A stretch of 53,900 nucleotides of DNA, from NCBI GenBank assembly GCA_032718475.1, contig JAUCBJ010008310.1:1-53900 (forward strand). Direction: 5' to 3'. The DNA comes from Nemertoderma westbladi. Its lineage: Eukaryota > Animalia > Xenacoelomorpha. The position numbers were made by a program, and so were the translations under genes. The notes beneath the pieces were generated by a model. It was given only the letters and a program-made list of their open reading frames with translations, had not been told where the DNA came from and ran no database searches. Position 1 is the first letter of the stretch; each line of letters opens with the position of its first letter. This document shows positions 3,864 to 49,245 of this stretch, one piece after another.

Positions 3864-3989
3864 AAATTAAAGTATAAATTTAATATATTAATACTACTTG
3901 GGCCCTTATATCATTATACAGAACGTCACAGATAGTGATAGACATCATACAGAGTTCGATACTCTGACTACTACTTTCATACTTTGCAG

Positions 3990-12900: not shown

Positions 12901-14802
12901 TGAGGATTTCTGGGGGTAGCATTATTTTTGTGCATGTCGAGGTTATACAGCAGGGTAGCCAGTTTATTGTAACATTATCTGACACAACACACCTTCCCCC
13001 ACCATATAGAATTGATAATCATTCTCAGGTTGATGTAACTTTCTTTCAAGTGAATTGCTTAGATGCAAGCATGTGGACTACAATGCAAACAAAGGCATCA
13101 CAGCCTTATGTTTTTGATGAGCCCACTTTAGCGCGTAAGCTTTCATGTTTTGTTCAGAGGGAGATTATTTGTGTAGTTGACATGGAAAGGCTTGGGAGTG
13201 AAGAACAACTTCAATATAGCAATTCCTTCTATATTGCAATAGCGTCACAAATTGCAGACACTCAAGGGTTAGATACACACTTAGTATTGGATGTTCCTCA
13301 TGGATCAGTTGTCCTGCTTAAAAGAAAAGAATCGTTCAAGCGTTCACAACTTTGGCGAATGACTTCTGATGGGTTGCTCTTTAATGAAGCTTCTATACCA
13401 TTGACGTCCAGTGGTGGACTTTGTCAACTTTCAGCGACATCACCATATGGGAAAGTGTTAGATGTATATAATTGGCCACACAATGATAGCAGCTCTATTG
13501 TTTCTCTAATGTTGCGCCAACCGAATCCAAAAAGAAGCTCAACACAACAGTGGGAATTTACTCATAAAAATAATCTGCGTTTACGATCAGAAGTTGGGTT
13601 TGTGGTTCAAGCTAAAAATAATTTGACTGGTTTAAGAAATGGCCAAGAAGTCTTACTATCGAAGCCATCTCCTAATACTGACGGAACTACAGTCCCATGG
13701 CAACATGTGATTCAACAACGCCCACGTGAGGGGTCTGGTATGTTAACATTGAGAGTTATTGTCGATGGCCCGACACAAGTGTTATCAATAAAGGACATGT
13801 TGGATACTGGCAGACACTCCCAGATGTTGCAAATTCCTGAGCGTCGGTTCGAGTGGGAAGCCAACTGCAAGATGCCATTGGGTATCCGTCTGTCCGTAGT
13901 TTCCTCTCGTTTGGGCCGTAACGAGGAGTTGATATTGGCGACACTGCAAGGATTCGATATCGGTCTGCGACATGGTCGCACAGAGACAACTCTCGATATC
14001 AATGTTGTCCACGTCCAATGCGATAATCAGTGTCTGTTTTCCGAGCATCCAGTCATATTCTACTCCATTAAGGGCCGCGAAGATTCCTCCGTGAGTGCCG
14101 TTAGAATGTCTATATGTAAAACCCACGACAGCCGTTATCACATTCACATACTGAAACGAGTTAATTTAGAGGTTCTCCCTTTCTCTATTGTTGTCAATGA
14201 GTCTTTGTTACTTAAATTGATGCTATTTTTACAATATATGCCGGACGAAGAGGCATTGCCAACCGCGAATTCGTTGGGATTAGATCTACGTCGTAGGTCA
14301 TCTGTTGGGAATTCTTCTACTCATTCAACGAAATTCTACTTCGAGGATCTTATAATATCGCCAACTTATATAAAACTGCAAACTTTACGGGCGCCGTACC
14401 TTCAAGCCAATCTCAAACAAATGCGTCAAGATATCGGTATTTGGTTTCTCAATATGGATATTCCAATGATTAATTTTGGAACGTTTTCTCGCCATCGTTC
14501 GTATGAAACTGCAAGTTTCCTATTGGCCAATCTCAGTAAGCATTACATGCAGTGCTGCAAGAAGGCGGTCCTCTATATGGTCGCATCTCTCCTTAATATG
14601 GGTGGTCTGCTTGGCGACCTCAAGGAAGGGGCCCTTGAACTCACCAGCCTCAACTTTAAGGGCGCTATTCGGAACACTTTTCACGGAATGTCGGATTTCG
14701 CCGTCAAGTCTACTGGAACTTTGGTAAACGCATTGGAGATAATTGCTATGGACGAGCAACACTATACTGAGAGAAGACGCATTGAGGCCAGCCATAGGTC
14801 AG
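3990..14802 (+). CDS. VPS13D: VPS13D giant coding exon (10,813 bp): lipid-transfer rod, VAB/SHR-binding repeats, ricin-B-like domain, start of C-terminal region
   Basis: Uninterrupted ORF bounded by acceptor actttgcag|ATT and donor TCAG|gtaagt. VPS13 motifs include 'WWNFA', 'YYNRSLSGWEPIVEPW' and 'PPYRIDNHS'. VPS13D-type motifs include 'FNTLRTVVNVQTWVMFLDFFGVG', 'SVRYTHTNRF' and the ricin-like 'RSQLWRMT...STQQWEF'. Confidence 0.95.
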
Positions 14803-15807
14803 GTAAGTGCAGTATCTGGGTGTCAGAATTAAAAAAAAATTATTTAATCTTTTTCGGTATATAATTGAAAATGTTACTATATATATAGATATATTATTTT
14901 AATTTTCAAGTCGCGGTTGGTGCTATATATCACGGCGTGAAATAAGGTAACAGTATTCTTTCAGTATGATTGTACTGTATTATACGGTCACGCTGAGGTA
15001 GGCCTAACAGCAAGTCATTCATCACAGAGACAGACAACACAAGATACATAAGGTCGTTACAGGTACCATACCGCGGACAGGATGAATGTAACTTAAAGGT
15101 CGTTGCCCACACCTAGTAGGTTCAGCCTGTAGGCTGCAGACTGCACAGCACACGTATAGGTTGTTGTAGGTACGGTACCGGTATAACACACAATTTCTAA
15201 TAAAAAAAAACTTCGAAACTTGAAAATAAAACAAATTCAATTGTCATATTTTAAATTGGCGGCACGGGCGGAACTCTAGATCACACTTAATTGTTGCTAT
15301 TTTTATTCCAGAACTTATTGTTTTCTTCTAGAACTTTAAATAAAGTGCTATACATAATGTAATCTAGTTGTTAGCTATTGCCATTCTTTTTATTATTTTT
15401 ACATTGAAAATATAACCCTTTAGAGACTTTTAAAATAAAAAGTTTCTCAGTAGTAGGTACTAATTATTGTTTACTACAAGAAGTAGGGACTTTATGTTAA
15501 TTAAATTGAAAAGATTATAAACAAAATATGAGTCTCTGCTTAATATTTCCCTTAAGCGGGAGACTGTGGGCGGATGATAGGGTAACTGCAGACGGGTGGG
15601 TCTCACCCTCACAAATACACAGCCTATAGCCAGGTATCAGCTCAAAAATATTATAAACAGTACGAAATTGTTTGCTCTATCAGATATTTCACCTAGCGGT
15701 AGACCTGAGATAGGATAATCTGCTGTATTTAATATATATTAACCCGCTAACCGTTGAAAGACTTTGTTACAGGTTTTTTTAAATATATCTGTAAATTTTC
15801 CCTACAG

Positions 15808-15999
15808 GTGGAATAGACCCCTTTGTTGGAGGTATTGTTTCCTTCTCCCATGGTATTGTTGGTGGGTTTGGTGGTTTGGTTAAGAAGCCTATGGAAGGTT
15901 TTACTAAGCAAGGCGCTTTCGGGGCCGTTAAGGGCGTTGGCAAAGGCCTCGTTGGTCTGTTAGCTAAACCAGCAGCTGGTGTGTTGGACATTGCTACAG
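15808..15999 (+). CDS. VPS13D: VPS13D exon, Gly-rich ATG2_C-like amphipathic helices
   Basis: Acceptor ccctacag|GT and donor CAG|gtatgt. Translates GIDPFVGGIVSFSHGIVGGFGGLVKKPMEG...KGVGKGLVGLLAKPAAGVLDIAT. Phase 1 to 1. Confidence 0.92.
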
Positions 16000-16310
16000 G
16001 TATGTGGCACATTGCTACAGGTATTTGGCACATTGTTAGAGGTAGGTGGAACTTTCTCCAGGTAGTTACTTTCTACAGGTATGCTACAGGTAGTTACCAC
16101 ATCGCTACAACAGCCAGATGGCACAATTCATTCGGTGGCTGGCACATTGCTACATTTAGGTGGCTGGTACCTCAACGCTACCGGTAGGAGGCACAATGTT
16201 ACATGTAGTGACACATTGCTACAGACAGGTGGTACATTATTGCTACAGGTAGGTTGTACCGTTCATTGACTACATGTTGCTGGGACATAGCTGGTAAGTG
16301 AACCTTGCTA
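15988..16310 (+). repeat. Degenerate ~21-bp tandem repeat derived from the exon/intron junction (CACATTGCTACAGGTA...)
   Basis: ATTGCTACAG|GTATGT at the true donor is repeated as ATTGCTACAG|GTATTT and ATTGTTAGAG|GTAGGT, with further decayed copies downstream. Confidence 0.75.
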
Positions 16311-18119: not shown

Positions 18120-20800
18120 GCCCTTTTAATATCATAATCGTCATCAGTAGGCCTACTGCTGTGTATTATGTGACCTAAACAATTGAATTTAGTAACTATT
18201 TCTATCGCACTGTTATAAAGGTAAACATCAGCAACAATACAGTTACTGGAGCACCTAGGTATAAAATATAGTTACTGGAGCACCTAGGTATAAAATACAG
18301 TTACTGGAGCACCTAGGTATAAAATATAGTTACTGGAGCACCTAGGTATAAAATATAGTTACTGGAGCACCTAGGTATAAAATACAGTTACTGGAGCACC
18401 TAGGTATAAAATACAGTTACTGGAGCACCTAGGTATAAAATACAGTTACTGGAGCACCTAGGTATAAAATACAGTTACTGGAGCACCTAGGTATAAAATA
18501 CAGTTACTGGAGCACCTAGGTATAAAATACAGTTACTGGAGCACCTAGGTATAAAATACAGTTACTGGAGCACCTAGGTATAAAATACAGTTACTGGAGC
18601 ACCTAGGTATAAAATACAGTTACTGGAGCACCTAGGTATAAAATACAGTTACTGGAGCACCTAGGTATAAAATACAGTTACTGGAGCACCTAGGTATAAA
18701 ATACAGTTACTGGAGCACCTAGGTATAAAATACAGTTACTGGAGCACCTAGGTATAAAATACAGTTACTGGAGCACCTAGGTATAAAATACAGTTACTGG
18801 AGCACCTAGGTATAAAATACAGTTACTGGAGCACCTAGGTATAAAATACAGTTACTGGAGCACCTAGGTATAAAATATAGTTACTGGAGCACCTAGGTAT
18901 AAAATACAGTTACTGGAGCACCTAGGTATAAAATACAGTTACTGGAGCACCTAGGTATAAAATACAGTTACTGGAGCACCTAGGTATAAAATACAGTTAC
19001 TGGAGCACCTAGGTATAAAATACAGTTACTGGAGCACCTAGGTATAAAATACAGTTACTGGAGCACCTAGGTATAAAATACAGTTACTGGAGCACCTAGG
19101 TATAAAATACAGTTACTGGAGCACCTAGGTATAAAATACAGTTACTGGAGCACCTAGGTATAAAATACAGTTACTGGAGCACCTAGGTATAAAATACAGT
19201 TACTGGAGCACCTAGGTATTAAATACAGTTACTGGAGCACCTAGGTATAAAATACAGTTACTGGAGCACCTAGGTATAAAATACAGTTACTGGAGCACCT
19301 AGGTATAAAATACAGTTACTGGAGCACCTAGGTATAAAATACAGTTACTGGAGCACCTAGGTATAAAATACAGTTACTGGAGCACCTAGGTATAAAATAC
19401 AGTTACTGGAGCACCTAGGTATAAAATACAGTTACTGGAGCACCTAGGTATAAAATATAGTTACTGGAGCACCTAGGTATAAAATACAGTTACTGGAGCA
19501 CCTAGGTATAAAATACAGTTACTGGAGCACCTAGGTATAAAATACAGTTACTGGAGCACCTAGGTATAAAATACAGTTACTGGAGCACCTAGGTATAAAA
19601 TACAGTTACTGGAGCACCTAGGTATAAAATACAGTTACTGGAGCACCTAGGTATAAAATACAGTTACTGGAGCACCTAGGTATAAAATACAGTTACTGGT
19701 GCACCTAGGTATAAAATACAGTTACTGGAGCACCTAGGTATAAAATACAGTTACTGGAGCACCTAGGTATAAAATATAGTTACTGGAGCACCTAGGTATA
19801 AAATACAGTTACTGGAGCACCTAGGTATAAAATGTAGTTACTGGAGCACCTAGGTATAAAATATAGACATTTTGTTTTCTTCTTATTAAATAAAATGGAG
19901 TTCCGTTCAGCAAAAAGTTCAGCTACATTAGTTAAACGTTGTAAACCAAAAATAGAGTTAGACAAAAGACATAAATCATCTGCATACCTAAGTGATTTAT
20001 TCCTGTATCCCCTATCAGACAGCCCACCCCTGTATTGGTTAAATCTTAACCTAGCTAGATGTAAACATTAAACAGCAACGGCGATAGAACTCCACCCTGT
20101 TTAGTTCCATTTGTTACCAAAAACGTAGAAGAAGTATACCCATCCCACCTAAAACACATGTACACTGCTCTCTGTACCAAGAGATAAAATGCTAACTATG
20201 TACATCGGTAAGCCCCTATCTATTAGCTTACGAAAAAGACCAAAGTGATTAATTCTAACGAAGGCTTTACTAGCATCTAACATGCATACAAACAATGGAG
20301 TATTTTGTGATAGATAATAGTTTACTTCCTTCAACGCATATACACATGTTTCGGTCACCAATTTTTCTTTAAAGCCAAATTGGTTATCCGAAGTTTTTAA
20401 CTTATTAATACACCTAGTTAATATAATACGTTCTAGAATTTTACCAAGTACGGATGATAGCTATCCCGTATCCCTCTATAATTATCTTTACTACTAATAT
20501 CCCCAGTCCTATCCTTAATTATTGGCAGTATGACAGAGTCAATCATTCCAGATGGTAAGTACCCGTGTACAAATATACAAGTAAAAAGCACAGATAGAAC
20601 CGTAAATAAATTTAGACTGCACCCATTTAAAAAATTCTCAGCTGTTAACATATCCGGACCAACAGCCTTATTGGTATTTAAACTATTAATTGAATCAAAA
20701 ACCTCATGTAACTTAACAATATCAGAGTCTAAAAACACGTTTGGTAATCCTAATTTAACCTTATCTAAAAACATAGCTGTAAAAGCTTTTGCGGACATAA
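18120..20800 (-). mobile_element. Decayed non-LTR retrotransposon RT region (RTEX-like), interrupted by a satellite
   Basis: Minus-strand fragments 'KAVGPDML', 'DNYRGI', 'CMLDASKAF', 'YADDLCLL' and 'FNKKKTKC'. Beyond the satellite it continues 'IEIVTKFNCLGHIIHS..DDDYDIKR'. Multiple frameshifts. Confidence 0.8.
18236..19866. repeat. 29-bp satellite (AGTTACTGGAGCACCTAGGTATAAAATAC), ~56 near-identical copies
   Basis: Head-to-tail array with only rare single-base variants and no spacers. Confidence 0.98.
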
Positions 20801-24926: not shown

Positions 24927-25274
24927 AAAAATTATGTTTTGAATAGATAGATAGATAGATTTATTTATACATTATGTAAAAACAATAACAAATACACCAA
25001 ACAATGTATCGGTATAAAGGTATTGTCCAACATAACATATAGGATTACCCCTAAAGCTTTGCAGCTTATTTCCAAGGGGGTCCTTTATGTTACTTGGTTA
25101 CAAATACAATATTACACTACGCTAACCTAAAACCAATATAAAACGTAATTACACTATGTACATGTACAACTTTACCGAGAGCGTGACAATGCCCGACTCA
25201 ACGATAAAGATGTAATGTACAGAACAATTTATTATAAAACGTATTTACAGCATAAATAGTAAATAATTAATAAA

Positions 25275-27482
25275 CTAATAACTTACTGTAGGACTATTGT
25301 ACCTATTTTTACATTGCACACGGAGATGAGATTTAACTGCAGATTTAAAAGAATGTTGATTATTTAGGTTTTTAATTTCATTAGGCAGAGCGTTCCAATT
25401 TTTTATGCCGTTAAAAAAGAAAGTATCAGATTCAAAGGATTTACAATTCGGGAGGTAGAAGTTTGAAGCACTAGCTCTGGTACTGTAAGAGTGTGTATCG
25501 CGTACTCTGTTGAATTTTTGTTTTAGGTAATTGGGACATTTACCATTATACACTTTATGCACATGGTTAAGGCGTAGCTGCTTAACTCTACTATCTAAGT
25601 TAAGTAGTCCAGATTCAGAAAAGTCATCTGGAGTTAGGTGGTGCCTAGGTTTGTAGTCTTTAATAAATCGTACTACTTTATTCTGAGCTACTTGTAATTT
25701 ACATTTAAGCTGTTTGGTTAAGCCTTCATACCAAGAAGAGCAAGCATAGTCCATGTGACACTGTATTAAAGAAGAGCAAAGTAACTTGCGGGAGTCGGTG
25801 TTTAAACTATTTTTATTTCTGTATAGAAACCTAAGCCTACTGTTAACTTTCGAGAAAATATTTTTCACTGTACTTTCTCCTGATAAGCAGTTATCCAATG
25901 TGGCGCCTAAATATTTAACTTCCTTTTTATTTTCAATCTTATGTCCATTACTAGTGACTTCAAACTTAGTTACCTTCTTCAACTTTCTTTTGGAACCAAA
26001 CAAAATACTTTCAGTTTTACCGTAGTGAATGGATAGCTTATTATCAACCAACCACTCATTACAGGATTCTAGAACTGCACTTAACTTTTGGGAAATATGG
26101 ATAGGATCTTTATGAGAGAAAATAAGAGCACTGTCGTCGGCATATAAAATGAGTTTAAAATCGGGATCTATACTACTTATCATATCATTTACATAGCATA
26201 CAAAAAGTAGAGGACCTAATATACTACCTTGCGGTACACCACAGGTAATCTCTTGTACAGTAGACTGCGATTTGCTAATGACTACAGTTTGACCTCTGTC
26301 TGACAGGTAGGACTTGAACCAGTCTATAGAACCTACACCCATCAGGCCTAACTTACCAAGCAGAATTTCGTGATCTACAGTATCGAAAGCCTTTTGTAGG
26401 TCCAACATTACCATACCAGTATATAAACCCTTTGCGTTATTACATCTAATTGTATCAGTTAAGCTAATAAGGCAGGTGTCTGTAGAATATGATTTACGAA
26501 AACCGGACTGAAGTTCATAGATCAGATTTAGCCTACTAAGATGTACCTCCAGCTGTAGAAAAACAGAACGTTCTAGAATTTTAGATACAATACTTAAGAT
26601 ACTAACAGGTCTGTAATTACAGGGTTCTACTTTACTATTCTTTTTATACAGAGGAACAACCTTAGCTAATTTCAGTTCGTCTGGTACTACATTATCTACG
26701 ATAGAGTAATTAATAATAAAAGTAATAGGCACTTTAAGTACTACAGCACCATCCTTAAGAAAACGGGCAGGTATTAGATCTAGACCGGTACTTTTTGAGG
26801 CTGATAGGCTAAGTAGATTTTTAAAAACGAAATCCTCAGAAACGGGTTTTAAAAATAACTTTTCTGAATTTTGTAACTTTTCTAAATAAAAATTATTTAG
26901 AGTTTCGGACCCTATACTATATTTATTACTTGATAACGGTAATTTCTTAACTAAATTAGAGGCAACATTAGTAAAATAATTATTAAATAAATTACTAACT
27001 AGAGTATGATCATGAATCAGCTCACCGTTATCTTGCAGAACAATATTCGATTTAGATTTAAGGTTTTTATAACCTAAAGATTTTAGGGTAGACCATAGAC
27101 TTTTTGGATTATCTTTATTCTCACTTATTTTGTTGTACAAATATTCAGATTTAGCTTTTTTTATTTCCCGTTGGACAAGGTTTCTATATTTGCAGTAATT
27201 ATTATAATCAGCTAAAACACGGTATTTCCTAAATTTATACAAATAGTTATCTCTTTCTCTGATATTACTAAGAATACCCGAGGTCATCCAGGGCTCAGTG
27301 CGTTGTTTAAGACTAATTTCTTTAATTGGTGCTACAGTATTAAGTGCCTTTAAAAATATATCTTTAAAAACAGTGTACGCAAGGTTAATGTCAGCGGCCT
27401 TAAAACAGGGTTCCCAGTCAGAATTAACTAACAAACTTAAAAAGCGTTCCTTGCTGTAATTTTTCATAGACCTAACTGTTAC
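25275..27482 (-). CDS. Host LINE ORF, 3' part: reverse transcriptase and C-terminal domain
   Basis: Motifs [42 protein letters not shown] and KYLG, plus the CR1/L2-type C-terminus 'HSYSTR...WNALP..IK...SFK'. No internal stops. Confidence 0.93.
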
Positions 27483-29044
27483 CTGGAGAAAAAGGTGGAC
27501 GTTACACACAGAGTACATCTAAGGCGCATAGTGGATAACGAGAGGCAGTGGGGACGCCGGAACCTTATCGTAATGAACATTAAAGAATCACGTAACGAGG
27601 ATTTAAAGCAGGTTGCTCATAACTTTTTGAGAAAAGATCTCGGGATCACGGAGCGACTAGGTGTTGATCGTGTTTCGAGGCAAGGTATGTTCAAGCGCGG
27701 TTCCACCCGGCCTATAAAAATTGAATTTACAAATATGACTGACAAATATACAGCATTGGACGCCAAGGACTGAAGGAGCAACTAATTGGCTCAGAGTATC
27801 GAATGGTGGATGATTACCCCCCTGAACTGAGATCACAGAGAGCAATTCTTTTCCGCTTATCCAGACAAGCTAAAGAGATGGGGCTTATTGCACGAGTATC
27901 AGGTAACGTTTTGAAACTGACTAATTTTTCAGTTAGTGGTTGGGACATAATCGATTCTCCTAATATTAATATCAGGACACTGCTCGACAGGCACTCCCCT
28001 GGACGAGCACGGGAGCCATCCCATCCCGATAGGAATCTATACAGGTCGCATGAGCAGGTTTCGAGAGGTCTGGACATCCATCCTAATACGAGATTTCGAT
28101 ACCAGGTAAACCTGCCAACCAGTGGGGGTGAACAACTGGGAAGCAATGAGGTTGAGGAATATGATAGGAGACGAGCGGATGAGAGAAATCCGTGGGAGAC
28201 AGAACGGCGGCAGGAAGAGTGGAAGCGTGGAGAGGAAGAGCGACGGCGGGCGGAGGTACGGAAGCGTGGAGAGGAAGAACGATGGCGGGCGGAGGAACGG
28301 AAGCGTGAAGAGGAAGAGCGACGGCGGGCGGAGGAACGGAAGCGTGGAGAGGAAGAACGATGGCGGGCGGAGGAACGGAAGCGTGAAGAGGAAGAGCGAC
28401 GGTGGGCGGAGGAACAGAAGCGTGGAGAGGAAGAGCGGCGGCGGGCGGAGGAACGGAAGCGAGGAGAGGAAGAGCGACGGCGGGCGGAGGAACTGAAGCG
28501 TAGAGAGGAAGAGCGACGGCGGGCAGAGGAACGGAAGCGTGGAGAGGAGGAGCGACGGCGGGCAGAGGAACGGAAGCGTGGAGAGGAGGAGCGACGGTGG
28601 GCGGAAGAACAGAAGCGTGGAGAGGAAGAGCGACGGCGGGCGGAGGAATGGAAGCGTGGAGAGGAAGAGCGATGGCGGGCGGAGGAACGGAAGCGTGAAG
28701 AGGAAGAGCGACGGCGGGCGGAGGAACGGAAGCGTAGAGAGGAAGAGCGACGGCGGGCGGAGGAACGGAAGCATGGAGAGGAAGAGCGACGGCGGGTGGA
28801 GGGGCCACAATTGGGTTGCCCAGATGCAGCTCAGGCCTCGCCTATTGGTTCTGAGCTGCAGTCAGCCCCAAATCGGGAAGGTATGGCTGAGTTGGTATCA
28901 GACCGAGTGGGGGTTGACTCTGTGGATCCTCAGCACACCCCGGTAATAATTATACAGCGGGGTACAGGCGGAGATGATCAGACTTGGCGAATCCGGGAAA
29001 GTGCGGGGGATTTCCAGCCCGAACAGGAAACTCAAACAGGCTGA
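27483..29044 (+). pseudogene. ORF1 of the nested LINE (L1-ORF1/Transposase_22-like RRM + CTD, then E/R-rich repeat); frameshift near 27769
   Basis: Motifs 'RRNLIVMNIKE', 'DRVSRQG...RPIKIEF' and 'DDYPPELRSQRAIL...AKEMG'. The frame switches at ...GCCAAGGA/CTGAAGGAGCAA (continuing LKEQLIGSEYRMVDDYP). Confidence 0.8.
28223..28807 (+). repeat. 39-bp coding tandem repeat, 15 copies (KRGEEERRRAEER)
   Basis: Fifteen 13-aa units counted in the ORF1 frame, all in frame. Confidence 0.95.
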
Positions 29045-29091
29045 ACCCAGAACTAAAAGTTGAGCCGCCAAAAGCAGGGACTGATAAAAAT

Positions 29092-32000
29092 ATGCTGAAG
29101 GTTGGCTTGCTAAACATAGAAGGTATAAATACGGCGATTGCCGATCCTGACTTCTGTCAAACAATTAAAAAACATGACATTTTCGTTTGTGTGGAAACTT
29201 GGCAGGCCCCAAACAATCCTCGTGATATTGGCATTGGGGGATATAAGGATTTTAGTGTTTGTAGGAAATATAAACATAGATATGCTAAAAGATACAATGG
29301 GGGTGTAACTGTTTATATATCTGAAGCGCTCGGTAATGAAGTTGCGATTCTGAATAACGTGACAAGTGAAGATTTATTATGGCTTAAATTTGTAGGTAAA
29401 CCGAACTCAAGAATACATAAGGATTTAATTATCTGTGCTGCGTATATTCCACCTCATAATTCTCCTAGCTATTTTAATGATTCTGGTTGTTTGTTTGATA
29501 AAATTCTAGAAGGTGTTTCTTTATACCAGAATGTTGATACTACTGATTTTTTAATAGTTGGAGATTTAAATGCAAGAACTGGTGTGCTATTAGATTATGT
29601 CTGTCATGATTCTTTGTTTACTGGTTTTAATGATTTATTACCCGATGAATACGTTTTTGATGATAATGATTGGCCAAATGATACTAAGATCCGTTCCAAT
29701 AGGGATTCGATTACTAACAGACATGGTGAGAAATTGATTTCTCTCTGTCGGTCTAGCAACTTAAAGATATTAAATGGTCGTGTGGGAGCGGATAAGGGTG
29801 TAGGTAACTTTACATATTATAGTGACGGAGGGAGGCATGGGGTTCGTAAGTCTACAATAGATTACTTTTTGGGTAATATTTCAATGATCACGGCCTGCAA
29901 ATATTTTAGTATAGGCGACCCCAACAGTTTATCGCCTCATTGTACCGTATCAGCCGCTTTCAACATTAGTGGCAGTGAATATTTCTGTTGCAGTGAATCT
30001 TATGATAATAGAACCAATGTTACTGCTGGTAAGTTAGCCAATAGCCGAAAATACAAATTTCTGCAAACAAAAAGTGGGGACTTTAGAGATGCATTAAACT
30101 CAGAAGCAACACAGCTGGAATTTGACAAGGTGTTGGACAATGTCTTATGTATGGAACCGCTTACCTGCAGTAAGGTTGATGCTGCCGTAACGGGGTTTAC
30201 CGATATTTTAAGTAATGCAGCCGATATTTATTTTAAAGTTGATAATAATGGTGTTTACCGTGCCTGTAATAATGCCCCTTGGTTTAATGAAAACTGTGCG
30301 GTAGCTAGAGATGCCTTTAGGCAGGCACTGGGAAGCTTTAAGAATAAGGGTGATGCAACGTCGAACGCTGCTATGGTGAAAATGAGGACCCAATACAGGA
30401 AGGTACTTCGTAAAGCTCGTTTTGACTTTAATTGTGGGAGGTCGGACAAGTTGCGGAAATTTAAAATTGTAGACTCAAAAAAATTCTGGAAACTATTAAG
30501 GCAGAGTTGCCAGGGTTCAAGTAGCCCACAGCAATCTCCAATAAGTGCGGAGGTATTTGCGTCCCATTTTAGGGCGCTGAATGAGGAAGGATCGAACTTT
30601 GTGGATATGGACGTTGTTGGGCTGCCTCCTAATAATAATAATAATGACTTTGCTTTAGCCAAACATATTTTTGAAAATTATATCTGTACGCCTTTGGAGG
30701 AGGAGGAGGTTGCCACGACTATCAATAGGTTACGTAGTAATAAAGCACCGGGTTTTGATGGTATTTTAAACGAATTTTTCATAGTGGGGGCGGAAACTTT
30801 AGTCCCAGTTGTTACGAGCATATTTAATGCAGCCCTCCATTGTGGTTATTTCCCAGACAGTTGGACTACTGGTATAATCACACCCATCTACAAAAATAAA
30901 GGTACAAGGTTAGACTCTAACAACTATAGAGGTATAACTTTGTTAAGTGCATTTGGTAAATTATTTACGCTTATATTAAACGGACGACTCCAATGGTGGG
31001 CTGAGGGGTTTGCGATAATAATTGAAGCTCAAGCTGGGTTTCGAGGTGGTCGTTCTACAGTAGATCAGATTTTTATTTTGAAAACAATTATTGATAATTT
31101 TATAGGTAAACGTGTTAAGATTTATTGTGCATTTATTGACCTAAGAAAAGCGTTTGATTGTGTAGATAGAAGTGCTTTATGGGTAAAACTAAGGAGGCTT
31201 GGTTTTTCAGGAAAAGTCTTTAATGTAATAAAAAGTATGTACAGTGCAGTTAAATCACGAGTACGTGTAGATGGGGAACTTTCTGGTGAGTTTATATGTT
31301 GGTTGGGCGTGAGGCAGGGCGAATGTCTTAGTCCATTGTTATTTAATCTATTTTTAAATGATTTAGAATCTGAATTGGCTGCAAATGGTATTCAAGGTAT
31401 CTCAATTGGCACATTTAAACTTTTAATGTTGTTGTATGCCGATGACATTGTGCTGATGGCAAACTCAGTTAATGATTTACAACATGCATTTGATATATTG
31501 GGTAGTTATTGTGATTATTGGTCTCTTACGGTTAACCTTGACAAATCTAACGTTGTTGTATTTAGGAAAGGGGGACAAGTGGCCTCCCATGAAAAATGGA
31601 AATATAAGGGTCATAATGTTAAAGTGGTGGGTGAATATATGTATCTGGGAGTATTATTTACTTGTGGGGGCAGCTTTGCCTGCGCTCAGAAAAATCTGGC
31701 TAACAAAGGGGAAAAAGCTAATTTTTCGTTAACAAAGTATTTGGCTAATTTTCCCACCACGGATTTCATTACGGCTTGTGATTTGTTTAATGCATTAGTT
31801 AAGCCAATTTTGACATATGGTTGCGAAGTTTGGGGTTTTTGTTCATCAGTTGATACAGAACGTGTCTTATTAAAATTCCTAAAGAACCGCCTTGGAGTGA
31901 AGGTAACAACCCCAAACTTCATGGTTTACGGTGTATCTGGCATTTTTCCGCTAGAAATTGAAAGATACTGTAGGATTATAAAGTATTGGTTAAAGTTACT

Positions 32001-32651
32001 AAGGTGCAATGACACTAGATTAGTTAAACAGGCCTATATTTTGCAATTGAACGAACTAAATACTGGTAGAACAGGGGATGGTGGAAATTGGGCTATCTCG
32101 GTGCGTAATTTACTAAATAATCTGGGATTTACTTGGGCGTGGGAAAGACCCGGGGACATATTAAATGAGAGGAAATTCATTCTAAATGTTCGTGAACGAT
32201 TATATGCACAGTTCGTACAGGGTTGGTGGGGTGCCATCGAGCGGTCGCCGAAGTGTATGCTCTATAGCAAAAGGGATTTCAGTTTGGAGAATAACCTATC
32301 TATGTTGAGAGGTCACGCAGGTCTTAGTAGGTTGATTTCCAGGTTCAGGTGTTCGTCACATGCACTTCTGATCGAGAGCGGCCGGTGGTATAAAATACCC
32401 AGGGAATCGAGAATATGCCCGGTTTGTAATAAAAATGATGGGAGGATGAATATCATTTTTTGTTGGTGTGTGATGGTTATCGAGATCTGCGCATGAAGTA
32501 CTTCTCTGGGCGCTACAATGTGAATCCTACTATATTGAAATACCATGAGCTAATGGGGGCAACTACCAGGGAAAAACTACTAAAGTTAGGTCGTTACCTT
32601 AACGAGGCTTTTCGCGTTAGGGAGAACATTATGCAATGTCGTTCCATATAA
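29092..32651 (+). CDS. ORF2 of the nested LINE: APE endonuclease + RT + C-terminal CCHC zinc knuckle (one frameshift near 32440)
   Basis: APE motifs 'LNIEG', 'VETW', 'GDLNAR' and 'IDY'. RT motifs 'NYRGITL', 'QAGFR', 'DLRKAFD', 'GVRQGECLSPLLF' and 'YADD'. The zinc knuckle CPVC...EDEYHFLLVC is split by the frameshift. The frame is open from 28984 and the first ATG is at 29092. Confidence 0.9.
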
Positions 32652-32858
32652 TATTCATATCAATTATTTTTGTGGGAATTATACAGTATGTGCTTTCGTC
32701 AGTTTATTTTTCAAACCAAACATTTATTTTTTATATTAGTAGATTTCTTTTGTGTTTATTATTTCCTTATAGTTACTTGTGCAGTTAATTGTGCGGTCAC
32801 TAATAGCCTTAATTGGTTGATGTGCTTATTATACAATTATACAATTCCTTATTGTTAC

Positions 32859-33570
32859 TGTTTTATGATCCCCGAAAAAAGATTTTTGTGTCTTTCTTGT
32901 GCAAACAACTATAAAATGATCGCTTAGACCTATAGGTAAAACCCCAGATTGAGAAATAATATCGGTATTATTACAAAGGATATGATCTAGTAAAGTAGAA
33001 GTTTTACTGGTAATTCTGGTAGAATCTCGAATAATTTGTTTTAAACCAAACAAATTTAAAATACTTTGGTACTGTTTACAGATGGGGGATGCTTTGTGAT
33101 GGTAACAGATATTAAAATCACCTAAGAAATATATTTCACAGTCTGACCTAAGATTACATAAAATTGTATTTTCAAAATTTTGCAAAAAATCTGATTGTTT
33201 AGGGGGCCGATATAAAGCACCGATTAAAATAGGTTTAGTTTTAGAAAGTAAAAGTTCCACCAGTAAAACTTCGTCACAAGTCTCTAAATCTTCCCTACGA
33301 TTAAAAGCTAAATCACATCGAATGTAAGTACAGACACCACCACCGTGTCTGTCCCTATCCTTACGTAAATCTACGTAATTATCAATATAAATTTCTCCAT
33401 CAGAAACACTATCATCGAGCCAAGTTTCAGAGATTGTTAAAACTGCTGGGTTGGATTTATTGATTAAAATACGAATTTCGGAAAGTTTTGGAAGCAGAGA
33501 TCGTGCGTTTAAGTGCAAAAAATGCAGACCTTTTTTCTTAAAAAAATTAAAAGTTTCACTCTCAGCATCA
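32859..33570 (-). CDS. Host LINE ORF, middle part: APE endonuclease
   Basis: Motifs 'GLHFLHLNARSL', 'ISETWL', 'RHGGGV', 'YRPP', 'GDFN', 'LLDHI' and 'GLSDH'. Confidence 0.92.
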
Positions 33571-34155
33571 CTCAGTCACTTGGAGTTTGCAGAGGGATGT
33601 GAGAAATGAATCGTCGGTTTCTGATTCTAAAATTGTATCATGAAAGGGAAGTTCGGTAAAAATACAGCTATTGCAGAGAAAACTTGGTTCAAGATTGTTT
33701 CTGGTGGAGAATAAATTACTGCGTTTCCTACGGTAACATTTTAAATGTACAAATGTGTCACAACTCTCGCATTGGACGATCTTACTCCGAGAGTTTGTTC
33801 CTCGTTGACAGACGGGACAGTTGATCTTCGGGGCCCGCGTCCTGCTGGGTCCTGGGTTGGTCTCAATATCCCCAGCCAGAGACAGTAGACAGAGTTTAGC
33901 GATTAGGCCTCTAGATCGTGGAGAGGAGACCCAAGATCTTCTTCCTCGACGAGAGCAGTAGAGGCTAAATCCACTCGTCGACCACATCTCCGTCGATTCG
34001 GCGCGGCAGTTCGAAACGGTAGCGACAGGGTGTTCCGCAAACCAGTCCAATACGGGTATTGGGTGGGTTGCAGGGTTACCCCGCGGATCGGATGGTTCTG
34101 CCACAACGAAACGACCCAGAACGATGAAAACTGTGGAGATTAAGAGCGGGGACAT
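33568..34155 (-). CDS. Host LINE ORF, 5' part: hydrophobic leader, 2A-like StopGo peptide, PHD finger
   Basis: Leader MSPLLISTVFIVLGRFVVA; LIAKLCLLSLAGDIETNPGP; C4HC3 pattern CPVC...CESC...HLKC...CNSC. It is frameshifted relative to APE around 33570-33600. Confidence 0.88.
   Translation of the reverse strand: MSPLLISTVFIVLGRFVVAEPSDPRGNPATHPIPVLDWFAEHPVATVSNCRAESTEMWSTSGFSLYCSRRGRRSWVSSPRSRGLIAKLCLLSLAGDIETNPGPSRTRAPKINCPVCQRGTNSRSKIVQCESCDTFVHLKCYRRKRSNLFSTRNNLEPSFLCNSCIFTELPFHDTILESETDDSFLTSLCKLQVTE
33847..33909 (-). other. 2A-like (StopGo/ribosome-skipping) sequence
   Basis: Exact D(V/I)ExNPGP consensus (DIETNPGP, 33847-33870), preceded by G and a Leu-rich helix. Confidence 0.85.
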
Positions 34156-34208
34156 TGTGCTGTCTGGCTGTAGTCTGACTCAGGGATAAAAACTGTATAG
34201 GCCTAGTA

Positions 34209-37200
34209 CCCTATTGAAAAGTTTTACATGTACGCCGAACACGTTCGGCGCAGCACTAGAACTTGCGCCGGGAGCTGGCGCAGAAATGTGCTACGCCGGG
34301 TAATGAGCCGGAAGGGTCGGCGCAGAGATGTGCTACGCCGGCGTAGCCGGCGGAGCACTGACTATGGTAGAGATGCTGCGCTCGGCGCAGCAGGCGTCGA
34401 AATATTCCCGGCGTCATCGCTGCAGAAATTGACCCGGCGCTGGAGCAGGAATCAGCCCAGCACACCCGGCGTACATATTTGCCTGGCGCAGAAATCAGCC
34501 GAACCAAGCACCGGACAGATAGTGAGACTGAGACAGAGCACGACAACAGACATGCGTTCATCAGACCAACAGCACAGCAACACAATAAAACCAACAGACC
34601 AACTGGCCTGGCCATGCAGGAGGCAGAATGGAAACTCACACTGGCTGACTACAACTGGTCATTTATTTACGTATTTAGCCTTATGCTGTAGTAGGCAGGT
34701 CAGCAGGTAGGCTATCACAGTTCCAGCTATCAGCTGATCATTCATTATTGCTATTGGTTAGTCAGTTTATTTATTTACATATTGCTGTATTGTATTAAGC
34801 TATATTTATACAGTATTATACTGTTATATTATATATTATTTGGATGGAGACACCGCTGTCATAGAAGCGTATAAATAAAACTGCACATAATAAAACAGGA
34901 TAAAGTTGAACAGTGAATAAAACAAAACGACTTCTACTATGGCAATGGCACTATTGATAATGAAACAATTTATTACTGACACACATAGGCCTTACAGGCT
35001 GATCTACAGTAGACACTAGTGGAATGTTGTAACCATTGGAAATTGCAGTTCAGCAGTTCAATGACTCCAAGTGCAAGGTCATGCATCTAGGTTCTAGAAA
35101 TCCCCAAGCAACTTTTTACACAATGAGTGGACGGACACTTTTATCGGCAACCGAGGAACGTGATTTGGGAATTACATTTAAACCACAAACTTGTCCTTCA
35201 CAACTCACTGCACAAAGACTGCAGCCCGTGCCATATGCAAGTCGTCCATTTAATACGACGAACTTTTACATATTTGGAAGCTCCGATGTTTACCCTCTGA
35301 CCCTGTTATACAAATCCCTTGTTCGGCCTCTCCTTGAATACGAATCGTCTTGAACAAGTACAACCCCGTGCCACAGTTGTCATATGAAAACCGACTACGT
35401 GCACTCAAACTACCGACATTAATATATCGCCGTGTACTAGCCGACCTTATAACAACATACAAGTTTATCCACGGGATTGACAATATTGAGCGAAGTAATT
35501 TCTTCCAATTTCGTTCCGAACTCCCCCAATACTCAACACGAGGCTCTTCCTTGGCGCTGTACAATGTTCGAACTATAGGACTCAAATGAGATGCAACAAC
35601 TTTGCAGACAGCGTTGTAAACATTTGGAATCCTTTACCATTACTGGAAAGTGTTGTTAATGCACGTAATACTTGGTACTCCATGGTTGAACACATTCAAA
35701 AATAGACTAGACTGCGAAATGTCCCTTAAAATTAATATGTAGTGATACTGTATTCCTGTGCGCCAAGTGGCAGTAGCGAAAGCGATATCTTTCAGATATC
35801 TTTCGGATACAACGATATCTTTATTAAAATCTAGCTACAGTAGCTATTATTTTCATTTTTTCAATCCCAAAAAAAAAACATTTTTTTTGTTAAATTTTAA
35901 ATAGTGTTTTTTTATGTTTAATTGTTTTCCTATCTTTTGTAGTTTCTTTACTTTGCACGTTTTATTTCAGCAGTATTATTTTACCAAAGCGACATACCTA
36001 CGGTACCAAATTTATGTTCCGTATAACTACGTATTGTTGTGTTGTTTGTATCCTATAGAGTATTGTAAACTTCTCCTTTATTAATATGCTTGCCTTTAGA
36101 ACTGTATGTTGTTGAAGCCCTTGAACCTAAGTATGCTTTGCCGATTTTATATTTAATTTTACTGTAATCATTTTTTTTAATAATTAACATGCATCAACTG
36201 TAAACCATTATCCGTATTTTTCTTACAATAGTACATACGCTTATTCGCGTACTTTGCCAGATTTGTTTATTTTATTTTAATCTACTGTACGTGTACGTAC
36301 CTGTACATGTGCAAAAATATATATTTTATTGTTATTCTGGCGATGTAAATAACATAACATAACATACAGCTAGTCATTATTCATTCAGACATACCGTATC
36401 TGTAGCATAGACGTATACTGGACCACAGTACTTAGTCTGTTAGTATGTAGTAAAGTAGAACGTAGTACTTAAATACAAGGACTAGGCCTACTGAAGTAGT
36501 CTTTAATATTCTTTCTATAATTTATAATCATATTGTAACATTTGACTAATTTCAAAAAATGTACACTTTACTTGACAACAAAAATTTACATGCAGTGTTT
36601 CATAAGTAGTTGTTTCGTAATGTTACACTTTTGGAATAAAACAACGCACCTAAACTGTACTTGTTGCATTTGTCTTTAAGGTATTCCGTCTCTCTCTTCA
36701 TCCTTATTTTAATTTCACCCATCAACTACTGTACTTTCGTTCGTTTAAGTAACAACTCGGATTAGCACAATTTCCAAAAGTGCTACTTTACAAACACATT
36801 CCAATACCATGAATACTTATTAATGGCACGCTGTACCTGATGATTTAGTTTAACATGCAAGAAATAATAATTATTAAAATCATAAAAAGTTTAATATATT
36901 CAAATATCCAAATCTTTCCCCATCCTTTTATTGTGGTACTGTATCTTATAAAATATAAATCTTGTTATGGAACGAACATAAGTTTGTCGAATTCGAATAC
37001 AATACGATATCATCAGTATTTAAATGAATACGTGTCTCTTGTAGGTGCCATCAACTCAAGACAGGGGGGTGGGGGAGGGGGGGGGGGGGGGGGGTCATGG
37101 GGGATATGTTTCATTACATACGTCATACATATTTTATAATTTACATACAGTATACTATATGCGGCTGCAGTATTATAGATAACATAATAGACTACAGGTA

Positions 37201-37565
37201 CTGTCAGACTGTACAGTATAACAGCCAGATTTTATATTTGATGTTTTATACTAGTCATCCCGGTGCAGCTTTGAAGAGCCGGCGGAAGATTTTTCACCCG
37301 GCGCAGCATTTTGCATTGCACAGAGCTAGCGCAGGATTTTTGCACCCGACATGGCCATAGGCGAATTTTGCAGAGACGGCGCATAATTTTTTGCACCCGG
37401 TGCGGTTTTGCACAGAGCCGGCGCAGAATTTTTTGCACCCGGCGTGGTTTTGCTCAGAGCCGGCGCAGAATTTTTGGCACCTGGCGTGGTTTTGTTCAGA
37501 GCCGGCGCAGGATTTTTGGCACCCGGCGCCGCGTTCGGCGCAGAAAATAAAACTTTTCAATAGGG
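34209..37565. mobile_element. 3.36-kb non-autonomous TIR DNA transposon with subterminal repeats; superfamily unassigned
   Basis: 18-bp TIR CCCTATTGAAAAGTTTTA / TAAAACTTTTCAATAGGG. TSD GCCTAGTA at 34201-34208 and 37566-37573. GC-rich (GCC)GGCGCAG subterminal repeats occur at both ends, as 42-bp units at ~37260-37545. Confidence 0.85.
35036..35720 (+). mobile_element. Decayed CR1-type LINE 3' fragment inside the TIR element
   Basis: Motifs 'FNDSKCKVMHLG', 'EERDLG', 'LYKSLVRPLLEY' and 'LSYENRLRALKLPTLIYRR..ADLITTYKFIHG', with frameshifts. Confidence 0.85.
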
Positions 37566-38043
37566 GCCTAGTACCGGTATCTTTCTTGGTCTTATTGTCG
37601 GCAGGCCTACAGCTTAATCGGTTGAAGGTTCGAAGCTGATTTACAAATGTTCCAGAAGCTTGGACCTGATAAGTCCGGAAAACCTCCACCAATTTTGATT
37701 AATGACATATTTGGAAAACACTAGGCATATCGGTTAGAAACAAACCATTCACTAATTCAAAAGATGTATGTTACCGGTAGATATGTCGAATCCGTGCTTG
37801 GTCAGCTTTCTAATAATGTATTGTATTACCATCAAATCATTATATGGTTGAAGAATAACTGCGATGTAACTGGTGCAATATCGACGGAGAAACTTTTTTT
37901 AAACGGTTGTACAGCAGCTAAAAAAATGAAAGCAAAAATTAAAATCCTGACTCACCCAGGGAGGAGGAGTTGAGCCAAACTAACTATAAGTATATCTAAT
38001 TCAAATTTTATGCAATATACAATTTGAACAGGGGGGAGGGGGA

Positions 38044-44445: not shown

Positions 44446-44895
44446 AAATATGAGCGTTTAAATATTAAACACAAATATGAGCGTTTAAATATTAAACACA
44501 AATATGAGCGTTTAAATATTAAACACAAATATGAGCGTTTAAATATTAAACACAAATATGAGCGTTTAAATATTAAACACAAATATGAGCGTTTAAATAT
44601 TAAACACAAATATGAGCGTTTAAATATTAAACACAAATATGAGCGTTTAAATATTAAACACAAATATGAGCGTTTAAATATTAAACACAAATATGAGCGT
44701 TTAAATATTAAACACAAATATGAGCGTTTAAATATTAAACACAAATATGAGCGTTTAAATATTAAACACAAATATGAGCGTTTAAATATTAAACACAAAT
44801 ATGAGCGTTTAAATATTAAACACAAATATGAGCGTTTAAATATTAAACACAAATATGAGCGTTTAAATATTAAACACAAATATGAGTGTTTAAAT
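44446..44895. repeat. 27-bp minisatellite (AAATATGAGCGTTTAAATATTAAACAC), 16 full copies plus a partial one
   Basis: Near-perfect tandem array. Confidence 0.97.
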
Positions 44896-48049: not shown

Positions 48050-49245
48050 CTCTTTCATTTCTATTCAGACATTTCTGACTCTAGCGGTATAGTGAGAACT
48101 GAAGATGGATTAGGGTCTCCAGCCCCACAAAGACACAGCCTATGGATGAATAGTACATACGTACATCGGCCAAGTTTCATCTTGAATAACGGATAACGAA
48201 ATGAGAGACGGATCTCACTTTCAGAAATTTCGTCGTATAGCGGCAGACCGATAAAAATCTCCCCCCCCCCCCCCCCCCCCCCCACAAAGACGCAGCATGT
48301 GGTCCAGAATATATGGCAAGATTCAGCTTAAACTGATTAAAATCAATGAGACGGGAGAATCTATTCACTTTCAGGCATAAAGTAGTCCTATAGCGGGTGA
48401 CTGTTGAACTGATTTTCAACAAAACAAATTTTCAACTTGGCAGCTTTAAATTCGACAAAGTTATAAGCATGTCAATATCATAACGACGACAACGATTTCA
48501 CTTTCAGACATTTGGCCCTCTAGCGGCAGACTGGAGAACTGCAGATGGATTCGCCTCCTTTGAAAGTCACAGCTAATGGTCTAATACATATCTGCCAAGT
48601 TTCAGCTTAAACGGATTAAAAGCAAAGAAATGGGAGGGCATTTAATGTTTAGACATGTGGCCCTCTAGCGGGAGACCATTGCACTGATGGTGTCTGAAAG
48701 TCTCTCAAAAATCTCAACTTTAGCTCATATTGATACCTACAAATTTTCAACTTGGCAGCTTTAAATCCGACAAAGTTATTAGCATGTCAAAATCGTAACG
48801 ACGACAACGATTTCACTTTCAGACCTTTGGCCCTCTAGCGGCAGACTGGAGAACTGCAGATGGATTCGCCTCCTTTGAAAGTCACAGCTAATGGTCTAAT
48901 ACATATCTGCCAAGTTTCAGCTTAAACGGATTAAAAGCAAAGAAATGGGAGGGCATTTAATGTTTAGACATGTGGCCCTCTAGCGGGAGACCATTGCACT
49001 GATGGTGTCTGAAAGTCTCTCAAAAATCTCAACTTTTGCTCATATTGATACCTACAAATTTTCAACTTGGCAGCTTTAAATCCGACAAAGTTATTAGCAT
49101 GTCAAAATCGTAACGACGACGACGACGACAACGACGACGACGACGACGACAACGACGACGACGACAACTATTTGCATAAATTGACCCACCCCCTAACAGT
49201 GTCAATTCGCTAAGGCTCCGCCAACTTCGTGGCTCGCCCCACAAT
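48050..49245. mobile_element. Non-autonomous repeat (HINE-like) with a 315-bp tandem duplication and (GAC)n microsatellite
   Basis: Units start at 48425, 48740 and 49055 (315-bp period). (GAC)n lies at ~49113-49167. The terminal segment 49160-49243 has an inverted second copy at ~38311-38400. Confidence 0.7.

What the first reader, a model, noticed from the sequence alone, without database searches (positions are those of the whole stretch)
33568..34155. LINE polyprotein with a signal-peptide-like leader and a virus-like 2A StopGo motif ahead of PHD-APE-RT
Seen: the - strand ORF starts with a hydrophobic leader (MSPLLISTVFIVLGRFVVA-EPSD) and runs 102 codons to ...LIAKLCLLSLAGDIETNPG|P. It then continues into a PHD finger and, across one frameshift, APE and RT. 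No separate ORF1 is visible upstream. Known: D(V/I)ExNPGP is the picornavirus-type 2A consensus, and 2A-like peptides have been reported at the N-termini of APE-type non-LTR elements in several invertebrates. Inference: ribosome skipping would release a ~100-aa, possibly secreted or ER-targeted peptide from a Pro-initiated PHD-APE-RT enzyme. Read-through would instead drag the enzyme into the secretory route. That would be a built-in switch for retrotransposase localisation or dose, plus an orphan small peptide of unknown function.
Basis: partly seen in the sequence, partly recalled or inferred. Interest (0 to 1): 0.82.

Follow-up and report, generated by a model that had tools for sequence, protein, structure and literature searches.

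The report
ER-signal leader ahead of LINE 2A
This is a broken copy of a one-gene jumping element whose protein starts with a water-repelling leader followed by a ribosome-skipping motif; the motif is known in such elements, but the leader recurs in dozens of related elements with unrelated leader sequences and likely steers their translation to the cell's internal membranes.

Summary
The rest needs correction. This copy is dead. A 5,370-bp second LINE splits APE from RT, and a 3,357-bp DNA transposon splits the 5' UTR; both have target-site duplications, and other copies show the empty sites. The frameshift comes from two indels that other copies lack. The family is high-copy, about 3.9 kb, with one 1,165-codon ORF whose first AUG is the leader's.

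2A-PHD-APE-RT single-ORF LINEs are known (Odon 2013). What I found in no paper searched is the leader's conservation. A hydrophobic N-terminus precedes the motif in 65 of 77 LINE-type proteins with a leader of 60 or more residues, across 37 of 44 mutually unalignable leader groups. It is absent from relatives that begin at the PHD.

Best reading, inferred: co-translational ER targeting followed by pause or skip, so only skipped enzyme stays cytosolic. No skipping, targeting or expression was measured, and SignalP was unavailable. The scan noted this layout twice before in other genomes.

The parts
37566..37616 (-). 5' end of the LINE and first 51 nt of its 5' UTR (includes one copy of the 8-bp TSD)
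   Evidence: Depth falls from thousands to 0-45 beyond about 37634; 7 X3 contigs with diverse loose ends behind 37614; one X1 contig runs 37616-37565 and continues into the leader side
34209..37565 (.). Inserted 3,357-bp DNA transposon, 18-bp perfect terminal inverted repeat, 8-bp TSD; not part of the LINE
   Evidence: empty site in X1, X2 and X4 contigs; no transposase-length ORF. 'hAT-like' is recalled from the 8-bp TSD only
34156..34208 (-). Rest of the 5' UTR (second TSD copy plus 45 nt), no ATG
34099..34155 (-). Hydrophobic N-terminus, residues 1-19; signal-peptide-like, with a (-3,-1)-compatible site after residue 19
   Evidence: no SignalP available
33907..34098 (-). Variable linker, residues 20-83, with an in-frame Met at residue 57; no detectable similarity to other leaders
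33847..33906 (-). 2A-like segment, residues 84-103: Leu-rich helix plus canonical core; G|P between 33850 and 33849
   Evidence: 5 Leu in positions -19..-10; 11 of 19 positions identical to F2A as printed in the preprint (compared by eye)
33664..33819 (-). PHD finger, residues 113-164
   Evidence: Pfam PF00628, E 6.1e-8
33568..33596 (-). Two indels (1 base missing, 8 extra) that break the frame in this copy
   Evidence: table 4; frame arithmetic
32853..33575 (-). APE endonuclease, catalytic motifs present
   Evidence: Pfam PF03372, E 3e-11; motifs
27483..32852 (+). Nested, unrelated LINE (5,370 bp, 6-bp TSD): likely 5'-truncated ORF1-like frames with a 39-bp coding repeat, plus a 1,172-codon APE-RT frame; not part of the element
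   Evidence: empty site in X1 and X2
25275..27482 (-). Rest of the ORF with the reverse transcriptase (YADD motif present), open to its stop
   Evidence: Pfam PF00078, E 3e-36
24944..25274 (-). 3' UTR ending in a short 4-bp microsatellite tail
   Evidence: Read from sequence; this end was not checked against other copies

Best explanation
This is a disrupted copy of a single-ORF, CR1/Crack-like LINE whose protein begins with a hydrophobic segment, a variable spacer and a 2A-like motif, a module that likely sends the translating ribosome and the element's RNA to the ER and then likely pauses it, so that only chains that skip at G|P would release a cytosolic PHD-APE-RT. Shown: the anatomy, the single ORF with the leader's AUG first, and clade-wide conservation of the hydrophobic start and of a spacing of 55 or more residues. 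Inferred: (1) SRP binds the leader; (2) the leader is already engaged at the translocon when the 2A segment is in the exit tunnel; (3) skipping frees the Pro-initiated enzyme beside its own RNA at the ER or nuclear-envelope membrane; (4) read-through product enters the ER and is lost, keeping enzyme dose low. The released peptide is most likely a disposable tether, not an effector.
For: Set chosen by RT or full-length similarity: 44 of 51 proteins with a 2A-like motif and a leader of 70+ residues have an N-terminal 12-mer with KD 1.8 or more, against 2 of 49 linkers and 2 of 34 controls. Both control positives carry 2A-like motifs that my first pattern missed, and none of the 10 relatives starting at the PHD is positive. 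Observed mean 2.34, shuffled leaders 1.24 +/- 0.07. Set chosen by the motif alone: 16 of 23 LINE-type proteins are positive; pooled, 65 of 77 in 37 of 44 unalignable leader groups. One apparent exception (P0096) has a cluster member with the full hydrophobic leader. N-side charge is at least the C-side charge in 43 of 49, fitting N-in/C-out orientation; spacing from hydrophobic core to G|P is at least 55, median 90, against 65-70 residues held in ribosome plus translocon (PMC2978324). The 2A segment is about as conserved as APE and RT while the leader sequence drifts (14 pairs), as expected for a signal plus spacer. The commonest residue at the E position is H (28 of 61), the one substitution there that keeps P2A active (bioRxiv 2026.09.24.754024). 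Precedents: SRP-dependent ER targeting of Ty1 RNA (PMC3945221, abstract), XBP1u hydrophobic region plus pause (PMC6624018, passages), membrane-binding ORF1p esterase (PMC3905857, abstract).
Against: Nothing was measured: no skipping, targeting, cleavage or expression. Hydropathy is a crude proxy and SignalP was not available. A (-3,-1) site occurs in only 24 of 49 leaders, so cleaved signal versus anchor is open. Only 5 of 61 motifs are canonical, and 20 of 61 lack the N that 2A activity needs; such elements could not skip by known rules and would lose all enzyme to the ER under this model. The window's motif differs from F2A at positions 4 and 8, where F2A tolerates few substitutions. Only 7.4% of retroelement 2As tested were highly active. 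N-glycosylation sites are not enriched. 37 of 65 linkers hold an internal Met that could bypass the signal. XBP1u's hydrophobic region recruits SRP without productive insertion, so 'into the ER' is not assured. Three of the four most distant 2A-bearing RTs with long leaders or weak RT similarity (P0425, P0426, P0429; 24-30% identity) fall below the threshold, and the fourth (P0435) has only a 41-residue leader. 180 of the first 271 proteins were 5'-truncated or uninformative and were dropped. The spacing minimum is partly imposed by my 60-residue cut-off.
Confidence: 0.5

Rival explanations
1. Pure dose throttle without a localisation role: the Leu-rich 2A-like helix stalls the ribosome and the hydrophobic start acts as a quality-control degron (mislocalised-protein disposal, recalled), together keeping ORF2p scarce; ER targeting of the RNA is incidental.
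For: Leu-rich eukaryotic 2A-like peptides (3-6 Leu) reduce protein abundance, including 59% of ORF2p cases tested (bioRxiv 2026.06.17.732966). The window has 5 Leu, and 43 of 58 motifs have 3-6. Odon 2013 and Luke 2013 propose down-regulation. It also fits motifs that lack N.
Against: It does not explain the charge bias or why the hydrophobic segment sits at the extreme N-terminus 55 or more residues ahead. The stall alone would throttle.
Confidence: 0.22
2. The released leader is a functional product: a small membrane-anchored or secreted ORF1 substitute that scaffolds RNP assembly or acts on the host.
For: Made in excess by design if ribosomes drop off at 2A. Some leaders are long with 2-3 hydrophobic segments (P0138 family, P0409). 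Leaders keep 21-65% linker identity within subfamilies. ORF1p membrane binding has precedent (PMC3905857).
Against: 44 unalignable groups among 77 leaders, length about 70-330 residues, no shared motif outside the 2A segment, and no sequon excess.
Confidence: 0.13
3. No skip is needed: the Leu-rich helix is a stop-transfer segment, so the full-length enzyme hangs on the cytosolic face of the ER by a hairpin anchor.
For: It would rescue the 20 of 61 motifs without N. Basic residues follow G|P (mean net +1.7).
Against: The helix reaches 19-residue membrane-spanning hydrophobicity in 3 of 53. It is preceded by net basic residues on the would-be lumenal side (+2.3). Some subfamilies have a weakly hydrophobic helix. 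The G-D-[VI] core would need another reason to be conserved.
Confidence: 0.08
4. The hydrophobic start is a by-product of T-rich DNA or of an RNA or promoter element just inside the ORF, and has no protein-level role.
For: I had DNA for only this family; dN/dS could not be computed; LINE 5' regions hold internal promoters (recalled).
Against: T is concentrated at codon position 2, and the other two frames are polar with 2 and 5 stops. Hydrophobicity peaks at residues 9-16 across unrelated sequences and beats shuffles by about 15 SD. Open leaders cluster at 100-115 codons.
Confidence: 0.07

Closest known systems
[quoted passage not shown] 2013, PMC3708506; Crack-17_BF, CR1-1_BF type)
   Same: Single ORF, 2A-like motif near the N-terminus, PHD between 2A and APE, frequent E-to-H/A changes in Crack elements.
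   Different: That paper places 2A about 40-80 residues from the start. In the four of six parts read (abstract, introduction, results, discussion) it mentions no hydrophobic or signal leader. Here the motif is at 102, behind a signal-like start conserved across the clade.
Sea-urchin NLR '2A-like signal sequences' (Roulston et al. 2016, PMC4981915)
   Same: Signal plus StopGo gives dual targeting: skipped product cytosolic, unskipped product exocytic.
   Different: There the 26-residue 2A is itself the N-terminal signal of a host protein. Here a separate hydrophobic segment lies 55 to over 200 residues upstream of the 2A, in a retrotransposon.
XBP1u hydrophobic region plus arrest peptide (PMC6624018)
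   Same: A hydrophobic segment outside the tunnel and a pausing peptide about 50 residues downstream bring an mRNA to the ER.
   Different: No sequence relation; XBP1u pauses without skipping and serves mRNA splicing.
Ty1 RNA targeting to the ER by SRP (PMC3945221) and membrane-binding ORF1p esterase of CR1/L2-type LINEs (PMC3905857)
   Same: Retrotransposons that use membranes or co-translational ER targeting for particle assembly.
   Different: Ty1 is an LTR element using Gag. The esterase is a folded ORF1 domain. Neither has a leader-2A module.

Membership tests
APE-type non-LTR retrotransposon with N-terminal 2A (Odon 2013) | APE domain followed by RT in one ORF | tested here: met
   Pfam hits; other copies join APE to RT at the insertion site; nearest homologue P0026 is collinear
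APE-type non-LTR retrotransposon with N-terminal 2A (Odon 2013) | D(V/I)ExNPGP motif in the N-terminal region, in frame with the enzyme | tested here: met
   in frame in other copies after net -7, although run X4 mostly does not show the 8-base difference
APE-type non-LTR retrotransposon with N-terminal 2A (Odon 2013) | No ORF1 | tested here: met
   5' end near 37616, 96-nt UTR without ATG
Active StopGo/2A peptide | Measured skipping at G|P | not testable with these tools
   Sequence fit only: canonical core plus L6, L7; positions 4 and 8 differ from F2A
Crack clade (L2/CR1 group) | RT phylogeny with RTclass1 references | tested here: inconclusive
   Reference RTs seen only as text in the Odon supplement; resemblance to Crack entries judged by eye; 7 of 8 motifs taken from this family were absent there, 1 hit a Crack element; no tree with references could be built
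Cleavable ER signal peptide | Hydrophobic core near the N-terminus, N-in/C-out charge bias | tested here: met
   (hydropathy proxy only)
Cleavable ER signal peptide | Signal-peptidase site after the core | tested here: inconclusive
   Compatible site in the window; 24 of 49 leaders overall; no SignalP
Cleavable ER signal peptide | SRP-dependent translocation | not testable with these tools
   Needs experiment
2A-like signal sequences (Roulston 2016) | The 2A itself is the N-terminal signal | tested here: not met
   2A lies at residues 84-103, behind a separate hydrophobic start

The most novel reading that the evidence does not exclude
A large group of ORF1-less LINEs replaced ORF1 with a sequence-free 'signal - spacer - ribosome arrest/skip' module that docks their translating RNA on the ER or nuclear envelope and releases the enzyme there in cis. 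In the many members with non-canonical motifs, the outcome at G|P may be set by translocon engagement, making this a eukaryotic, transposon-borne counterpart of secretion-monitor peptides.
Probability: 0.3. Interest if true: 0.82.

Novelty: new variant of a known kind. Interest (0 to 1): 0.58.

Why it matters
Why ORF1-less LINEs keep an N-terminal 2A, often in weak or degenerate form, has been open since 2013. Published assays put the 20-30-residue motif between cytosolic reporters, without its native leader, and an upstream signal is known to change 2A behaviour in cells. If the leader targets the ER, those assays missed the natural context, and how these elements assemble particles without ORF1 becomes testable with simple leader mutants. 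It would also supply dozens of natural signal-plus-skip modules for dual targeting.

Tried and rejected
No whole genome is held for this window, so no family consensus or dN/dS could be made. The five leader-region differences listed among other copies were 3 synonymous and 2 non-synonymous, none in codons 1-69; 22 further rows were not shown. That is too few to use.

Searching with the leader-PHD protein for longer relatives gave 393 candidates, none significant. The ESM Atlas gave no usable hit for a homologue's leader. The metagenome scan gave 6 loci: two decayed copies and four unrelated PHD matches, of no use for selection tests. The genome-contig scan found none. No RNA holder was listed; X6 is only guessed to be RNA and was not used as evidence.

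An apparent likeness between the window's leader and that of its nearest RT relative P0026 did not beat background. My first idea that 34210 is a splice acceptor was rejected: it is a transposon end. The stop-transfer reading of the 2A helix was weakened. The tree is a quick search without bootstrap (59 rows; 20 of 56 inner branches open) and was used only to name the nearest relative. No structure or complex prediction was run: the leader has no alignable relatives.

Full report
Observation. The - strand ORF from 34155 has 195 codons, a hydrophobic start, a canonical 2A core with G|P after codon 102, and a PHD. The motif is unique in the window and expected about 4e-5 times by chance; the hydrophobic start is specific to this frame. 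Contigs from public DNA runs of one organism show a high-copy family of near-identical elements. A 5,370-bp LINE on the + strand separates APE from RT with a 6-bp duplication, and X1 and X2 contigs pass straight from APE into the RT-side sequence. A 3,357-bp element with 18-bp inverted ends and an 8-bp duplication sits 53 nt upstream of the ATG; the UTR resumes at 37566 and family depth ends near 37616. The PHD-APE frame break comes from a 1-base loss and an 8-base gain relative to other copies. One X1 contig shows both, although in X4 only 22 of 8,974 depth shows the 8-base difference. By length arithmetic the uninterrupted element is about 3.9 kb: a 96-nt UTR without ATG, a 1,165-codon ORF (nearest relative P0026: 1,162 residues, 50-54% identity over APE and RT) and a UTR with a microsatellite tail. 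So the leader's AUG is the first AUG of a single-ORF element, and this copy is dead.

Is the leader a family trait? I took the best 120 of 4,496 RT homologues and the best 150 hits of a full-length relative among 50%-identity representatives. Of these 270 plus the window, 180 were 5'-truncated or uninformative and were dropped; 57 had a 2A-like motif and 34 served as controls. Of the 51 with a leader of 70 or more residues, 44 have a 12-residue window of KD 1.8 or more in the first 40 residues. This compares with 2 of 49 linkers and 2 of 34 controls; both control positives have motifs that my pattern missed, and many controls are merely truncated ORFs, but none of the 10 that begin at the PHD is positive. 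Shuffling each leader gave 1.24 +/- 0.07 against 2.34 observed.

An independent set came from a profile of the motif alone (best 120 of 380 hits, 114 new). Among its LINE-type proteins with a leader of 60 or more residues, 16 of 23 were positive. The five RNA-virus polyproteins with RdRp domains showed no such start (four scored low; one has its motif at residue 33 and was not scored). 20 of 60 unclassified proteins were positive. Pooled with a wider pattern, 65 of 77 are positive, in 37 of 44 groups whose leaders do not align with each other. The window's leader is one such singleton. The most distant RTs (24-30% identity) mostly lack it, so it may be limited to the CR1/Crack-like group.

Shape of the module. 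In 49 leaders the N-side charge is at least the C-side charge in 43, and the distance from the core to G|P is 55-229 residues, median 90 (the lower bound is partly set by my cut-off). Sequons are not enriched (52 against 49). A (-3,-1) site is present in 24 of 49. In 14 related pairs the 2A segment is 57-95% identical, like APE (54-77%) and RT (53-81%), while the first 30 residues are 20-70% and the linker 21-65%. The pre-2A helix is membrane-spanning in length and hydrophobicity in 3 of 53. Only 5 of 61 motifs are canonical, 10 more are D-x-H-x-N, and 20 lack N. Some leaders reach 250-330 residues with several hydrophobic segments.

Mechanism. Established: 2A motifs pause the ribosome and can skip (PMC12846837, passages). 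An N-terminal signal upstream of a 2A can suppress skipping and send the fusion into the ER, and 65-70 residues fill ribosome plus translocon (PMC2978324, abstract and Discussion). E14H is the one tolerated change at that position in P2A, and most retroelement 2As are of middling activity (bioRxiv 2026.09.24.754024, passages and section 31). Leu-rich eukaryotic 2A-like peptides lower protein abundance (bioRxiv 2026.06.17.732966, sections 12, 13 and the first part of 14). Inferred: SRP brings the translating RNA to the ER, the 2A pauses it there, skipped enzyme is released beside its RNA, and unskipped enzyme is lost into the ER (0.5). Rivals: throttle only (0.22), functional released peptide (0.13), hairpin anchor (0.08), compositional by-product (0.07). 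The motifs lacking N are the main unexplained fact.

Known versus new. Odon 2013 (PMC3708506; parts 1-4 of 6 read; supplement file 2 searched, file 1 not searchable, figures not held) already describes single-ORF 2A-PHD-APE-RT elements. Luke 2013 (PMC3894237, parts 1-2 of 3) proposes down-regulation. Roulston 2016 (PMC4981915, passages) shows 2A itself acting as a signal in NLR proteins. Rao 2025 (PMC12338488, passages) notes that most eukaryotic 2As lie near the start without an annotated upstream domain. PMC4120745 (passages) lists single-ORF PHD elements, with no occurrence of 'signal', 'hydrophobic' or 'transmembrane'. Precedents were seen as abstracts (PMC3945221, PMC3905857, PMC5478143) or passages (PMC6624018). 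Searches listed no paper on a signal-like leader upstream of LINE 2As. Subscription papers, theses, Repbase and preprint supplements were not searchable, so an earlier mention is possible. Clade placement near Crack is by eye only. Two earlier notes of this scan on other genomes reached the same view; I saw them after my own census, and they are not evidence.

Verdict. An ordinary, dead copy of a known element class, carrying a real, clade-wide and apparently undescribed feature with a testable but unproven mechanism. New variant of a known kind; interest 0.58.

Noticed in passing
window 3942-14864 (+): A 3,640-codon uninterrupted ORF matching VPS13 families (Pfam); a giant host gene that is nearly intron-free here, with a likely further exon at 15795-16187.
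   Followed up: partly
window 27483-32852 (+): Nested LINE whose ORF1-like frame carries about 15 copies of a 39-bp repeat encoding a Glu/Arg-rich stretch; its APE-RT frame of 1,172 codons is open.
   Followed up: partly
window 34209-37565: Non-autonomous DNA transposon (18-bp inverted ends, 8-bp TSD) with GC-rich subterminal repeats; its ends are high-copy in runs X1-X4.
   Followed up: partly
proteins P0138, P0352-P0422 family, P0409: Leaders of 160-330 residues with two or three hydrophobic segments and internal repeats ahead of a canonical 2A.
   Followed up: partly
proteins P0010/P0054, P0034/P0055, P0037/P0044: Leader similarity and RT tree disagree, hinting at exchange of 5' modules between lineages; not tested.
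   Followed up: no
proteins P0044, P0046, P0048, P0058, P0088, P0152, P0166, P0248: A second type of pre-2A segment with an Arg/Tyr/Asn-Ser pattern and low hydrophobicity recurs in distant RT lineages.
   Followed up: no
window 18236-19863, 44446-44895, 486-1255, 48424-49125: Tandem arrays of 29 bp (56 copies, 98% matches), 27 bp, 19 bp and 315 bp.
   Followed up: no
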